From: Eledone cirrhosa
Lineage: Eukaryota
DNA length: 64,000 nt
NCBI GenBank assembly: GCA_964016885.1
Contig: OZ024741.1
Location: forward strand, 321,036,001-321,100,000
Direction of reading: 5' to 3'
Shown in pieces: positions 3,023 to 58,601 of this stretch (its first letter is position 1; every line of letters starts with the position of its first letter). The position numbers and the translations under genes were made by a program. The notes under the pieces were generated by a model. That model worked only from the letters and a program-made list of their open reading frames with translations. It was not told the origin of the DNA and did no database searches.

Positions 3023-3115
3023 ACGTATCTGACGACCTTGCGATTTCAGAGTGAGGTTCGATCATTACAGCAATCGTGCCTCGAGCTGGTCGCCAGAGAA
3101 ACGATTGTAATATGT
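3023..3115 (+). ncRNA. Type I hammerhead ribozyme motif with long stem II
   Basis: Stem I ACGTAT/ATATGT; core CTGACGA (3029-3035); ~60-nt stem II (GCGAT/GTCGC, TGAGG/CCTCG, CGAT/ATCG); GAAA (3098-3101); near-palindromic stem III CGATTG; GUA cleavage triplet. Confidence 0.7.
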
Positions 3116-3182
3116 GTAATATATTTTATTCGTCGCAACACTGATTCTCCGTTTCTTATGTGATATATATATATATATATAT

Positions 3183-3322
3183 ATAACGAAGGAAATGTGG
3201 TAAGGAACCAGATGGACCATAACGCACCAGAGTACTCAATACTTAGGGTAGTAGAGTGGGTAATAGGAAAATGTTTGACCTCGACGGCAGAGCTCAAGCC
3301 GTTTCGACGGCTATTTCTGGGC
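3183..3322 (-). repeat. 3' fragment of the U3-A8 HHR element family
   Basis: Reverse complement of ...agccgtcgaaacggcttgagctc...ccactctactaccctaagtattgagtactctggtgcgttatggtccatctggttccttaccacatttccttcgtt, which recurs at 11.8, 21.2, 28.7, 29.4 and 39.3 kb; flanked by (TA)n. Confidence 0.85.
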
Positions 3323-3681
3323 TACTATATATATATATATATATACAAATGAATATATGATAGGGATAAACACTGATACAAGTATACATGTGTTCGCATT
3401 ACAAATGACCAAGTTAGCTAGATTGAAAAATACTAATTAAAATAATACGGTTTGCCTGTCTCGATTTAAAATAATAAATCAATAAAAACAAACCTATATT
3501 GGCAATAGCCGTGATACCTGGACAAATTTAAATTTATATATATAATATATATATATATGCAAAGAGTTGTTGGTTATTCAACAAATTTAATTATAACAGT
3601 TTCGAAGCACTCTACAGTATTCTTCTGGAGTATAATATCAATGATATAAATAAATGGAAACTACCTTTATAAAACCATATT

Positions 3682-3742
3682 TATTTTATTATATATATTT
3701 CAAGGGTACCAACATTTTGGTACTCTCTCATCAGATAAAATA
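3682..3742 (-). ncRNA. Minimal type I hammerhead ribozyme
   Basis: Minus strand reads TATTTTAT-CTGATGA-GAGAGTACCAA aatg TTGGTACCCTT-GAAA-TATATA-TA-ATAAAATA; palindromic stem III; AUA triplet. Confidence 0.75.
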
Positions 3743-3919
3743 CAAAAGTTGTTTTATAAATATTGACATATCCAAAAAACAAAAACTTATCGTTTTAAGT
3801 TCTATTCAAACAGAACTTAAAACGATAAGTTCTTGTTTTGGGGATATGTCAATATTTATAAAACAACTTTTGTATTTTATCTGATGAGAGCGTATCAAAA
3901 TGTTGGTACCCTTGAAATA

Positions 3920-4687
3920 TCTGTATATATACATAAAGACGAAGTTTTCTGTATGTGTGTGTATGTGTGTGTGGACCATTTTTAATGCGGGCTCATATAT
4001 TCTAAACCATTCATGCGATTTCTTTGAATTTTTTACAGAACTCCTCCTTGCACAAAACCTGTACATGATCTACAAAGGCTTTCAAAAATCGATATTGGGG
4101 CCTTTGGAGACATTAAAAAAGTTTCGGTTATTTGTGTCAATTTTCGTGATTAAGTAAGACAATAGTTATCTTTAAGTAAGACAAGAGTTATCTTTCGTAA
4201 TTAGGCTCATTCAGATTTTAATTTACTCTTTGTACTTGAAACAAAAGGTACGCTTCCTTGTGACTAACAATATCATTTTGTATATTTCACAACCAGCAAT
4301 TTCTAACAGATTACTAAGTTAAGTTATAGATTTGACATTGTATAATTTATCCTTTCAAGCTTGATGTTCATACATTAAGTGATGTCAAAACTGTTACAAT
4401 ATTATGCTTTGTACATAATAGTGTCTATTATTCACTTCACTCCTCTATTTCATGATGCGCTTTTACTGTTGTCAAACAAATTTATACGTAGACTGGATTT
4501 CTGTTGTTACATGGTATAACGGATGACACCGAGCTCACATATCAATTATTTCGCTGGAATAGTGCCTAAGGTTTTCATGTTTACATAAAGTACGTTTTTC
4601 TTCTATGTATTCAAATTTACTTTGTTTAGTTTAGTGAGCTACATCGAAAGCTACTTGAACCGTCCAAAGGACGGGTGGTTTAGCTAG
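3920..4687 (+). mobile_element. Non-autonomous Helitron
   Basis: Begins TC(tgtatatatacataaa) and ends CTAG; subterminal hairpin CCGTCC-aaa-GGACGG (4660-4674); inserted between A and T with no TSD. Removing it restores gaaatatatataataaaa, identical to the other arm of the host hairpin. Confidence 0.85.
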
Positions 4688-6007
4688 TATATAATAAAAT
4701 AAATATGGTTTTATAAAGATAGTTTCCATTTATTAATATCATTGATATATATATATATATATATATATATATATATATATATATATATATATATATACAC
4801 ACACACACCACATATAAGAGAGAAAAAATTACTCATTGCAGAAGTTACTGCCCTTACTACTGATACTCTACTCTGGATTTTTCTTAAAGAATTTTTTTTT
4901 ATTTTTTAAGTTTGGGATTCTGAGAATTCTTTGGATTTTAGTTTTTAATTTTTGACAATTTTCTGAATTTTGAAGAAAAAAGATTTTCTCAATTTCCCAC
5001 CACAAAGGGATCTGTGACAGACAGACTGAAAAAAAACACACAGACAAACACCATCACCCCCACCCCACCCACACGTGTTGCTAAAGGGACTATGACTATA
5101 CTGAAAACACACACCCATGTCTGTATTGTTATATATACACCTTCACTCTCTCTCTATATATATACACACACTCCCTAAAACCATATTCCAATAATAGAAT
5201 TTCTCCTGCTGCTTCCACAGAACTTACCTCTAACTTACAATACCCATCCCCTTTTGAACTCTTGACCAGTCAATTACCACAATCATATATATACACACAC
5301 AGGCTTTGAAGAAACACAACTACTGCTATCTTCTCTTACCACAAAATTTTGAGCAAGAAGGGTGGAAGAAAATTTACTCCAACATTTGATTTTAATTTTA
5401 AATCCTTAGTTTTAAACTCCTATTAATACTTTTTAATTTTTATTTCAATACTCAACATTTGATAAGATGGATTTTAACAATACATCGAAACCGGTAATTC
5501 TTCATATACTTTACATGCATTATAAAACGTTTTTTTAAAAAAGAATTGTCCCCCTCCCCTTTTTTTCAATAATGTTATCTTTTCAATAATGTCACTTTGA
5601 CGAATCAAAAAAGAAAAACAGACCCTTAAATATATTTTCCGTGCTATTTCCAACTTCACCTTTTCTCTATATATATATATATACTCACACACACACACAC
5701 ACACACACACACACACACACACACACACACACACACACATATATATATATATATATATATATATATATATATATATATATATATATATATATATATATAT
5801 ATATATATATATAAGGCTGGAACTAGGTGTCAAAACAGCAAGAGCTCAGCCAACAAGTCTCGACTCCTTATAATATAACCATACTCTACTACCCCAAATA
5901 TCGAGTACTCTGTCGACTAATGGTATAACTAGTTCAAACTGAATCCATCATGATTTATATATATATATATATATATATATATATATATATATATATATAT
6001 ATATATA

Positions 6008-6915
6008 TACAAGTTAATATAAATTAATATATGATAAACACCAATATAAACATATAAGCGTTTGCATTGTAAACGACCAAGTTAGCTAGATTGAAAAATA
6101 CTAATTAGATTAATACAGTTTGCCTGTCTCGATTTAAAATAATAAATCAATAAAAACAAACCATATTGGCAATAGCCGTGATACCTGGACAAATTTAAAT
6201 TTCAAAATCAAAACCTGTTCCGCAGACAAATTTAAATTTCAAAACCCAAATAAGTTTCGCAACGATAATTTAAAAAAGTGAAAAATTCACGGCTCAGAAA
6301 TACTTCTTTCTTTGAGCTAATTAATTGTAAAAGACTGTTTGAGTTTATAACTCTAAATATAATATTTAACGGCTCCTGTTGTTGAGCTAAATTTTAATCC
6401 CATATAGAAAGCTGTTATTTCTAGCAGCATGAGTATGGGGCTAGCTAGGAGCTGGAAAACCACGTGCTTTAACACTTAACTACCAGTCCTACAAAAATAT
6501 TTCGAGGTGAAACATGCTAATTTCTGGATTCCTGTTGATGACCACAGGAATTGGATTTTTCACTTTTTTAAATTATCGTTGCGAAATTTATTTGGGTTTT
6601 GAAATTTAAATTTGTCTGCGGAACAGGTTTGGATTTTGAAATTTAAATTTGTCCAGGTATCACGGCTATTGCCAATACGGGTTTGTTTTTATTGATTTAT
6701 TATTTTAAATCGAGACAGGCAAACTGTATTAATCTAATTAGTATTTTTCAATCTAGCTAACTTGGTCGTTTACAATGCAAACGCTTATATGTTTATATTG
6801 GTGTTTATCATATATTAATTTATATTAACTTGTATTTCACGGCTCAGAAATGCTTCTTTCTTTGAGCTAATTAATTGTAAAAGACTGTTTGAGTTTATAA
6901 CTCTAAATATAATAT
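6008..6915 (+). mobile_element. ~550 bp retrozyme-like monomer (GGCTCAGAAA family) with 5' inverted partial copy
   Basis: ttcacggctcagaaa recurs at 6286 and 6836 (period 550); 6008-6285 is the reverse complement of ~6557-6834; degenerate HHR-like TTGATGA...GC-GAAA at 6531-6596; (TA)n flanks. Confidence 0.7.
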
Positions 6916-57214: not shown

Positions 57215-57376
57215 ATCACAACATCCTAATTTTCTTATCAACTAGAAACTTTCGGACTTTCGCAGGTATCTCCCTTACACCTCTCACACGCAATTTAGTA
57301 TTCCTGTATGAAGTGATCGTTTCTGCGCATGCGCGTTCGTATGGTTGTCCTTCCTGTTCCGTATAACCATGTCCAT

Positions 57377-57419
57377 TACGAGCTGAGGATCCGCTAAGGT
57401 GAAACAATTGTTCTCGGTA
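57377..57419 (+). ncRNA. Minimal type I hammerhead in PLE 3' UTR
   Basis: CGAG-CTGAGGA-T-CC gctaa GG-T-GAAA-CAATTG-TT-CTCG; palindromic stem III; GUU triplet; U10.1-U11.1. Confidence 0.78.
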
Positions 57420-57671
57420 GGGTGAACTAACTGTTGTGTAACCACTTCTACCTAACTCGTCCCATGGACTGAGTGCTCTACCACTACGGATATTACCTTC
57501 CAGTGTTCTACCACTATATATATAAATATATATATATACACGCGCGCGAAAACACACAAGTGTGCATACATACACACACACTCGCGCAAAAGATAGGGTC
57601 GATGTTTATATACACCCAACATTTTACAGATCACCACAAACATCCTTTTTCTTTTTGCTAAATCCCCAAGC

Positions 57672-57751
57672 CTGACGAGCAGTTCGATGCTGGAGTCGTG
57701 TCGATAGCTTCCATTCATGACCTGGAGCCAATTGTCTGTGAAATGTGCGTA
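57672..57751 (+). ncRNA. HHR-like motif with long stem II, stem I not evident
   Basis: CTGACGA-GCAG...CTGT-GAAA-TGTGCG-TA. Confidence 0.4.
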
Positions 57752-58108
57752 ACAGATCGATAATCAGTAAAAACATGAAAACAAATCTTGATCGTTTTTC
57801 TTCCTGTTATACATATATATATATATATGTATACACACACACACACACACACACACACACACACACACACACACACACACACACACACACACACACACAC
57901 ATATATATATATATATATATATATAAATAGTTTAATATCAATAGAATTTAAAAGAAAAACGAACACAGACATATATATGTGTTCAAATCGTAAGGGACCT
58001 GATCCGCTAAGGTGAAAAGAATACTAACTATAGACAATAGGGTTCGCTTGTCTCAATTTAAGAAAAAATTAAGAAAATAAATACAAACCGGAATTGTGGT
58101 AACTACCA

Positions 58109-58183
58109 ATCACCCAGACAACTTGTTGTTTCGCAAAGTTAATTGTGAATAGAAATACCAATCCAAGCTCATCAGTGGGTGAT
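58109..58183 (-). ncRNA. Type I hammerhead ribozyme, GUC site
   Basis: ATCACCCA-CTGATGA-GC...GC-GAAA-CAAC aa GTTG-TC-TGGGTGAT; 8-bp stem I, 5-bp stem III. Confidence 0.88.
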
Positions 58184-58489
58184 GAATTAGTATCCTAGAC
58201 ACATCTAAGTATGCTATATATAAAATACATAAAATAGCGCACATGGCATCCTAGCGTGTCTCATAAACCCACACCACTAAAAATAGCAGCCAGGTTCACT
58301 CGACATTTGAAATAGCTCAACAAATTAACGGAGCCGAATATATCAACGGTATGTATTGAGTTAGGAATGTATTGAGTTAGAAAGTGATATTTCTGAGCCG
58401 TATATTAATAGAATATAAAAGAAAAACGAACACAGACATATATATGTGTTCAAATCGTAAGGGACCTGATGTGTCTAGGATACTAATTC

Positions 58490-58601
58490 ATCACCCACTG
58501 ATGAGCTTGGATTGGTATTTCTATTCACAATTAACTGATGAGCTTGGATTGGTATGTCTATTCACAATTAACTTTGCGAAACAACAAGTTGTCTGGGTGA
58601 T
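58490..58601 (+). ncRNA. Inverted copy of the same HHR with a 37-bp internal duplication
   Basis: ctgatgagcttggattggtat(t/g)tctattcacaattaa occurs twice (58498-58534, 58535-58571). Confidence 0.8.

What the first reader, a model, noticed from the sequence alone, without database searches (positions are those of the whole stretch)
3023..58601. Window-wide hammerhead/retrozyme ecosystem associated with Penelope-like elements
Seen: about 20 type I HHR or HHR-like motifs in roughly ten unrelated non-coding families, plus both coding PLEs, most embedded in (TA)n and many with short palindromic stem III. Established: PLEs carry minimal HHRs, and non-LTR retrozymes (newt satellite 2, Schistosoma SM-alpha type repeats) yield circular RNAs and are thought to use PLE machinery. 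Inference: this genome (probably a cephalopod) hosts an unusually dense and diverse PLE-parasitic ribozyme-retroelement community that protein-based annotation misses. I cannot check whether these families are already catalogued.
Basis: partly seen in the sequence, partly recalled or inferred. Interest (0 to 1): 0.85.

Follow-up and report, generated by a model that had tools for sequence, protein, structure and literature searches.

The report
Penelope ends and retrozymes carrying hammerheads
This window holds 22 complete hammerhead ribozyme motifs, and the genome an estimated quarter of a million; three sit in visibly coding Penelope-like jumping genes, ten are shown or likely end-pieces of such genes, and nine sit in short non-coding repeats whose insertion ends suggest they are likely copied by the same enzyme, a known kind of partnership seen here at unusual density.

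Summary
The motifs are real. A descriptor finds 19 against 0.5 in shuffles. One is probably chance and four more were read by eye, giving 22 complete type I hammerheads plus one disrupted. Cores are conserved across 338 copies and stems covary.

'Ten unrelated non-coding families' is only partly right. Three motifs are in the two coding PLEs. Six are 3' ends of 5'-truncated Hydra-type PLEs, linked to the ORF elsewhere, and four more are probable relatives. Only nine, in two related groups of 425-561-bp tandem units, are true non-LTR retrozymes.

All nine families tested, four retrozymes included, show the PLE signature: two fixed 3' ends at (TA)n, variable 5' truncation and inverted arms. One arm is tailed and one untailed in 112 of 119 pairs. 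This is genomic evidence that PLE reverse transcriptase copies the retrozymes.

Sampling gives about 80-100 motifs/Mb (2.5-3x10^5 per genome); this window is about 3 times richer. Cleavage, circles and host taxon are untested. These are new members of known kinds, and the scan has noted similar patterns in other genomes.

The parts
6982..10137 (.). P1: Neptune-type PLE insertion. Minus arm with 630-aa stop-free 5'-truncated RT+GIY-YIG ORF (7436-9325) and 56-nt tail; inverted plus arm 9288-10137 without tail
   Evidence: YVDD, Cx4CxxC linker
7188..7232 (-). HHR of P1 (extra base after A9)
9947..9991 (+). HHR of P1, inverted arm
56335..57509 (+). P2: Hydra-type PLE 3' part (endonuclease ORF 56489-57211), short inverted RT fragment at 56387-56518
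   Evidence: CxCx5C, CxxC, CxH
57379..57416 (+). HHR of P2 (U10.1-U11.1, stem III CAATTG)
3023..3115 (+). HHR of family A (62-nt stem II region); 3' end of a Hydra-type PLE, element 2994-3167
   Evidence: endonuclease end 1.9 kb upstream in L201
3682..3742 (-). HHR of family D; 3' end of a Hydra-like PLE, two-armed insertion 3560-3937
   Evidence: (endonuclease end 1.0-1.3 kb upstream in L202, L234)
3873..3930 (+). Disrupted HHR on the inverted arm of D (core and stem II present, stems III/I lost)
21609..21663 (+). HHR of D2, a D subfamily; palindromic insertion 21523-21707
11094..11187 (-). HHR of family B (U3-A8 core, 5-bp stem III, GUC), untailed arm; 3' end of a Hydra-type PLE
11714..11807 (+). 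HHR of family B, tailed arm; insertion 11082-11899. Truncated B ends without the 5' core also at 3186-3324, 21061-21261, 28623-28812, 29266-29456, 39262-39341
22754..22849 (+). HHR of family B with C3-A8 mismatch; element 21895-22861
   Evidence: by eye
40699..40736 (+). HHR of family G; 3' end of a Hydra-type PLE, element about 39580-40887
   Evidence: ORF end 1.7 kb upstream in L116
23578..23660 (+). HHR of A2 (stem I 5'-truncated by the inversion); resembles A, ORF link not shown; palindrome 23464-23702
27530..27621 (-). HHR of old family F (F2 copy), long stem II; tail resembles A by eye, ORF link not shown
   Evidence: by eye
57666..57757 (+). HHR of old family F
   Evidence: by eye
13743..14842 (.). 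Retrozyme E, 467-bp unit, two head-to-head arms
13969..14013 (-). HHR of E
14504..14548 (+). HHR of E (stem III CTAG)
37877..39187 (-). Retrozyme E', 425-bp unit, 3.1 tandem copies, HHRs at 38083-38125, 38508-38550, 38936-38978; half-motif relic at 41105-41211
6010..6911 (.). Retrozyme C2, about 550-bp unit, two arms; HHR at 6527-6661+ (U3-G8 wobble, long stem III); relic at 3346-3534
27997..28545 (-). Retrozyme C, 561-bp unit; HHR at 28172-28305 with a stem III of about 28 bp
57935..58866 (.). Retrozyme H, 467-bp unit, two arms; HHRs at 58109-58183- and 58490-58601+ (37-bp internal duplication)

Best explanation
The 22 motifs are type I hammerheads near the 3' ends of Penelope-type mobile elements: three in visibly coding PLEs, ten in truncated ends shown (6) or likely (4) to belong to coding Hydra-type PLEs, and nine in ORF-less 425-561-bp tandem units (non-LTR retrozymes) that are likely copied in trans by PLE reverse transcriptase. 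Inferred mechanism: the PLE GIY-YIG endonuclease cuts both strands of a (TA)n tract. Reverse transcription starts at two fixed internal sites of the element RNA, 56-103 nt apart and downstream of the ribozyme, likely one site per target strand. The cDNAs stop at variable 5' points and are often joined head to head, which gives one tailed and one untailed arm. The template is likely uncut tandem RNA or a re-ligated circle, not the cut linear monomer. The ribozyme is kept by selection in source copies and likely cuts precursor RNA into units, often as a dimer through the palindromic stem III. Shown: motifs, conservation, covariation, ORF links, unit structure, end geometry. Inferred: catalysis, circles, enzyme identity, twin priming.
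For: Excess over shuffles. Variants shared by 3 or more copies occur in 2 of 121 core columns against 172 of 1342 others, over 338 copies of 11 families; 289 have an intact core. Family D: 93.9% of cells paired, 10 of 21 pairs with changes on both sides, 8 of 10 in stem II. DNA contigs of four public runs vary within the E' ribozyme only at N7, loop II and both partners of one stem-I pair. ORF-UTR-HHR continuity for B (L113, L115), G (L116, L117), A (L201) and D (L202, L234), with Hydra motifs in B, G and P2. Retrozyme tandems return to the same unit and hold ATG-ORFs of at most 66 aa (E, E', C). Two fixed 3' ends in all nine families tested. One tailed plus one untailed arm in 112 of 119 two-armed pairs (100 of 107; 12 of 12), and in 15 of 19 pairs in stretches not chosen by a query. 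Only 2 of 451 5' ends lie within 3 nt of the cut; 78 of 164 retrozyme runs exceed one unit. Frangieh 2024 (PMC11167929) shows in vitro that the tail is the stretch between two RT start sites and calls it unique to PLEs. One insertion joins a P1 arm directly to an E arm (L237).
Against: No cleavage or RNA data. In a recent test only 1 of 9 predicted Xenopus retrozymes cleaved (bioRxiv 10.64898/2026.07.22.740005). Isolated motifs often fold otherwise: the full three-way junction was the MFE only for B 11714 among 17 folded. No retrozyme showed homology to the 3' region of any coding PLE in hand, so the partner is unidentified. Mixed junctions are 2 of 154 and 0 of 16 more; the P1-E case has two untailed ends, breaking the tail rule, and could be a deletion between neighbours. 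Most loci were picked as best matches to a query, which biases end statistics. A2, D2, F and F2 are assigned by resemblance only. Short remnants of a second arm were rare (3 against 120 with none), so not every insertion looks twin-primed.
Confidence: 0.82

Rival explanations
1. All families, E, E', C and H included, are just pLTR fragments of coding PLEs whose full-length copies were not sampled; there are no independent non-coding parasites.
For: True for A, B, D and G, which looked non-coding in the window. Only the 40 best candidates per search were scored.
Against: In coding B the tail runs on towards the ORF (L115). In E, E' and C it returns to the same 425-561-bp unit wherever a tandem continues, in 18, 23 and 24 loci. 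In H it runs into the unit start. No contiguous endonuclease end was found upstream of any of them.
Confidence: 0.08
2. The tandem units are satellite DNA spread by DNA-level processes (unequal crossover, rolling-circle DNA), and the ribozyme is a relic inherited from a PLE end.
For: Li et al. 2026 discuss local tandem amplification after a PLE insertion. The E' array here has 3.1 copies, and one sampled 10-kb stretch held 14 motifs.
Against: Copies are dispersed over many chromosomes, short, 5'-truncated, often inverted, and end at two fixed points at (TA)n. Cores are depleted of shared variants.
Confidence: 0.06
3. The motifs are conserved as a protein-binding or folding signal for the PLE RNP rather than as active ribozymes.
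For: In the Anolis PLE, ribozyme mutants insert normally in vitro and cleavage needs the protein (PMC11167929). cDNA 5' ends ignore the cut site. Several motifs have weak stems II or III.
Against: The catalytic core bases themselves are what is conserved, including the C3-G8/U3-A8 swap and N7 freedom. H17 was A, C or U in all but one of the 291 copies. Related animal retrozymes cleave and circularise (PMC7229834).
Confidence: 0.15

Closest known systems
Type I hammerheads in the pLTRs of metazoan PLEs (Cervera and de la Pena 2014, PMC4209133)
   Same: Location near the 3' end, mostly single truncated copies, opposite-strand pairs, U3-A8 variant, extra base after A9, palindromic helix III, many families per genome.
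   Different: Here helix III is usually present (1-5 bp, about 28 bp in C). Stem II regions reach 54-62 nt, and 3' UTRs are 1.0-1.9 kb. The estimated number (2.5-3x10^5) far exceeds the 2,000-9,000 given there, though descriptors differ.
Hydra-clade PLEs (Craig et al. 2021, PMC8557442), including Hydra-1_Obim of Octopus bimaculoides
   Same: C-terminal endonuclease with CxCx5C linker, CxxC and CxH motifs, canonical HHR, (TA)n target, tail and inverted arm. The B and P2 proteins resemble the printed Hydra-1_Obim protein by eye.
   Different: At least five families here (A, B, D, G, P2) against one cephalopod Hydra family in their table. Four HHR motifs of these families were absent from their supplement. 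Tails are 75-103 nt in A, B, D, G against 30-40 bp. The B unit is about 3.4 kb against under 3 kb.
Non-LTR retrozymes of animals (Cervera and de la Pena 2020, PMC7229834; Li, Clavereau and Pollet 2026 preprint)
   Same: ORF-less tandem units with one type I HHR each, GC 33-38%, predicted highly self-paired circles, co-occurrence with PLEs.
   Different: Units are 425-561 bp, mostly 1-3 copies. The PLE tail, inverted arms and (TA)n targeting shown here are not described in the parts of those papers that I read. No pLTR homology to a coding PLE was found, unlike 21 PLE matches for the 57 Xenopus families.
Poseidon element of Anolis (Frangieh et al. 2024, PMC11167929)
   Same: Two internal RT start sites give tailed and untailed ends; AT-rich target; uncleaved RNA as template.
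   Different: In vitro no strand preference of start site was seen; here two-armed insertions nearly always pair one of each.

Membership tests
Type I hammerhead ribozyme | Core CUGANGA (or U3-A8), GAAA and UH in type I order with stems I-III | tested here: met
   18 by descriptor, 4 by eye with a mismatch or weak stem
Type I hammerhead ribozyme | Core conservation and stem covariation across copies | tested here: met
   formal covariation count only for family D
Type I hammerhead ribozyme | Rfam gathering threshold | tested here: inconclusive
   Window hits below threshold; 18 of 74 scored genome candidates pass RF00163, all family G
Type I hammerhead ribozyme | Self-cleavage after UH | not testable with these tools
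   needs in vitro assay
Hydra-clade PLE (B, G, P2; A, D by fragments) | RT followed by C-terminal GIY-YIG with CxCx5C linker, CxxC and CxH, no CCHH | tested here: met
   for B, G, P2; RT seen for B, and for P2 only as a short inverted fragment; A and D only the C-terminal CxxC region
Hydra-clade PLE (B, G, P2; A, D by fragments) | Placement in the Hydra clade on an RT tree | not tested
   only compared by eye with the printed Hydra-1_Obim protein
Neptune-clade PLE (P1) | RT plus C-terminal GIY-YIG with Cx2-5CxxC linker | tested here: met
   no tree made, so Nematis is not excluded
PLE-type insertion | 5' truncation, partial tandem, inverted 5' arm, optional 3' tail, (TA)n target | tested here: met
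   for coding families and for retrozymes E, E', C, H
Non-LTR retrozyme (E, E', C, H) | Short ORF-less tandem unit with one type I HHR per unit, low GC | tested here: met
   H period
Non-LTR retrozyme (E, E', C, H) | Expressed as monomeric linear and circular RNA | not testable with these tools
Non-LTR retrozyme (A, B, D, G) | No coding capacity | tested here: not met
   contiguous with endonuclease ORF ends elsewhere in the genome

The most novel reading that the evidence does not exclude
This genome carries one of the heaviest ribozyme loads recorded for an animal (about 2.5-3x10^5 hammerheads in dozens of families). Its non-coding retrozymes bear the PLE-specific two-start-site tail, a direct genomic fingerprint that PLE reverse transcriptase mobilises animal retrozymes in trans, without detectable sequence kinship. 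The near-strict one-tail rule would reveal an asymmetric PLE dimer that primes one start site from each target strand.
Probability: 0.55. Interest if true: 0.68.

Novelty: new member of a known kind. Interest (0 to 1): 0.46.

Why it matters
Which enzyme moves animal retrozymes is stated as open in the 2020 paper and the 2026 preprint, which rest on co-occurrence and pLTR homology. Fixed tailed and untailed ends on ORF-less units give mapped RT start sites that can go straight into the published in vitro PLE assay. The one-tail rule constrains how PLE integration works in vivo. A load near 100 motifs per Mb would make self-cleaving elements a notable, unannotated part of this genome. The component ideas are all published, so this is a rich new case, not a new kind.

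Tried and rejected
Rfam scan of the window: swamped by TA/TG matches to miRNA models; 163 of 313 rows were not shown. The repeat finder direct families: all microsatellite.

Family B as a non-hammerhead ribozyme (HDV- or twister-like, recalled) was rejected once the U3-A8 core and 5-bp stem III were seen. A first reading of family C used the wrong GAAA; this was corrected (long stem III). The idea that every insertion has two arms was not supported (U positions were mis-set there for B and C). Simple fold-back copying of one strand was rejected, because either arm can be the longer one and arms of one insertion can differ. The D reference was faulty and was redone. Regex attempts 52 and 60 failed; worked. 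A partner PLE by sequence homology: none found.

RNA evidence: no RNA holder listed; this is no evidence either way. The protein search with the B ORF gave 811 relatives, best 39-57% identical among those listed and without informative names, so no host assignment. The D endonuclease fragment was left out of the protein alignment. Motif 24528- was set aside as probable chance. Circle-folding energies were compared only with mononucleotide shuffles, a weak control.
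Full report
Observation. A strict type I descriptor found 12 motifs. With scoring, 10 had no core mismatch, against a mean of 0.05 in 20 shuffles that keep dinucleotides in 500-nt blocks. A relaxed descriptor found 19, against 0.5. One (core 24528-) has no repeat family and is set aside. Reading the sequence added four weaker motifs and one disrupted one; coordinates were checked. The total is 22 complete motifs, so 'about 20' is right. 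Rfam sees little: two sub-threshold HH9 rows among the 150 of 313 shown.

Selection on the motif. I fetched the best-matching loci for eight families (40 candidates scored each, from 216-3017 first-look candidates, which are not copy numbers) and for RF00163 (415,510 rough candidates, 74 scored, 18 over the cut-off). Among 338 copies of 11 families spanning the ribozyme, 289 have all 11 core bases. Variants shared by three or more copies fall in 2 of 121 core columns and 172 of 1342 other columns (Fisher p 3e-5, but columns are not independent and copies were chosen by similarity). For family D I aligned 40 sequences: 35 of the 40 most diverged among 75 distinct copies (five damaged or duplicate ones dropped) plus five others. 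In that alignment 93.9% of cells pair, and 10 of 21 pairs change on both sides, 8 of them in stem II; 0 of 500 shuffles reach the cell count and 9 of 500 reach the pair count. Contigs of four public runs vary within the E' ribozyme only at N7, loop II and both partners of one stem-I pair. Against this, only 1 of 17 isolated motifs has the full junction as its minimum-energy fold.

What the families are. The window's P1 has RT, GIY-YIG and a Cx4CxxC linker (Neptune type). P2 has CxCx5C, CxxC and CxH (Hydra type, as defined in section 11 of PMC8557442; motifs). Following longer copies upstream showed that four apparently non-coding families are 3' ends of coding PLEs. B lies 1.1 kb after a Hydra-type ORF (L113, L115), G 1.7 kb after one (L116, L117), A 1.9 kb after an endonuclease end (L201 only), and D 1.0-1.3 kb after one (L202, L234). 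D2, A2, F and F2 resemble these but were not linked to an ORF. In contrast E (467 bp), E' (425), C/C2 (561, about 550) and H (467) are tandem units that return to themselves, with ATG-ORFs of at most 66 aa in E, E' and C tandems. They form two related groups, E/E' and C/H. The split is 3 motifs in visible PLEs, 6 in shown PLE ends, 4 in likely PLE ends and 9 in retrozymes.

Mechanism. Every family tested has exactly two 3' end positions at (TA)n, separated by a tail of 56-103 nt. Both orientations were present in 7 of 24 (C), 13 of 18 (E), 16 of 23 (E'), 15 of 29 (D), 6 of 24 (A) and 24 of 29 (B) loci. Of 119 two-armed pairs, 112 have one tailed and one untailed arm; in the 99 stretches not chosen by a query the figure is 15 of 19. 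Frangieh et al. (PMC11167929, parts 1-2 of 4 read) showed in vitro that a PLE cuts and extends both strands of AT-rich DNA, starts at two internal RNA sites whose interval is the genomic tail, and uses uncleaved RNA. Finding this signature on ORF-less units is the best evidence here that PLE enzymes copy them. Only 2 of 451 5' ends lie within 3 nt of the cut, and 78 of 164 retrozyme runs exceed one unit, so the template is uncut tandem RNA or a circle. These two cannot be told apart from DNA. Two of 154 direct head-to-head junctions join different families, B with G (L030) and P1 with retrozyme E (L237); none of 16 more did. This hints that arms are primed independently and that E may ride a Neptune-type enzyme, but one case is weak. 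No retrozyme was homologous to a coding PLE end in hand.

Density. In 79 stretches of 10 kb taken at round coordinates (not a formal random draw), the descriptor found 85 motifs in 790 kb, against about 6.6 in shuffles. That is about 99 per Mb, or about 82 without one stretch holding 14. It extrapolates to 2.5-3x10^5 in 3.0 Gb. The flanking 200 kb had 47 (null 2.4), so this region is 2-3 times richer than average. The 132 hits fall in 36 clusters, 19 with two or more members. Published counts, made with other descriptors: about 120,000 in axolotl and 5,000 in mussel, and 9,000 in Xenopus and 4,000 in coelacanth.

What is known. PMC4209133 (parts 1-2 of 4; supplement searched in part) already reports PLE hammerheads as mostly single truncated copies, opposite-strand pairs and U3-A8 cores. 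PMC7229834 (passages and Discussion) and PMC7761336 (passages) define non-LTR retrozymes and propose PLEs as helpers. The 2026 preprint 10.64898/2026.07.22.740005 (main text; supplements closed) supports this by co-occurrence and homology in vertebrates. PMC8557442 (passages, section 11 and supplement look-ups) describes tails, inverted arms, (TA)n targets and one octopus Hydra family. PMC13282606 (passages) lists 31 recently active Penelope-like families in O. vulgaris and does not mention ribozymes in its main text. Searches for octopus or cephalopod with hammerhead or ribozyme and for retrozyme with tail and inverted listed no census of this kind. The library lacks most subscription papers, and Dfam and Repbase could not be checked, so these families may be catalogued under other names. 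That the host is an octopus rests on my recall of the abundant SINE and was not tested.

Verdict. The feature is real and well supported, and is made of known kinds. The added value is the density and the PLE end signature on retrozymes, which makes the helper hypothesis directly testable. Interest 0.46.

Noticed in passing
family B, e.g. window 21120, 28680, 3324 and L031-L055: 108 of 141 5' ends fall 21-60 nt upstream of the cut, inside stem II or loop II (partly query-biased). This gives MITE-like palindromes. It may mark a transcription start inside the upstream ribozyme, or an RT stall.
   Followed up: partly
window 21061-21261 and L031-L055: The palindromic loop III of B differs by one base between the arms of one insertion. 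The variant is in 2 of 23 tailed and 0 of 22 untailed arms outside the query set; within that set, 14 of 15 scored untailed arms keep the palindrome. Unexplained.
   Followed up: partly
window 28172-28305 and 6527-6661: Retrozyme C has a stem III of about 28 bp, unusual for an animal hammerhead and predicted to allow monomer cleavage.
   Followed up: partly
L030:1498-2504 and L237:1185-1947: Head-to-head junctions between different families (B with G; P1 with E).
   Followed up: partly
window 41740-53700: Nested or tandem fragments of a non-LTR retrotransposon with APE endonuclease and RT (Pfam); the L1/Tx1-like label is recalled. Several 3' ends lie at (ATAG)n.
   Followed up: no
window 54179-55283: A transposase-like fragment (54634-55158-; mariner/Tc1-like by recall, no Pfam hit) and a palindrome at 54179-54351.
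   Followed up: no
window 12021, 13322, 17848, 18134, 23811, 25254, 53775, 61370, 63727: Many copies of one SINE-like repeat, recalled as resembling octopus SINEs.
   Followed up: no
L074, L079, L096, L098, L304, L309, L315: Further hammerhead families absent from the window, with stem II regions over 100 nt or 7-bp stems III.
   Followed up: no
L255 (G000:C2 near 58.798 Mb): A 30-bp minisatellite made from loop II of retrozyme H; the window's H copy has a 37-bp duplication in the same place.
   Followed up: no
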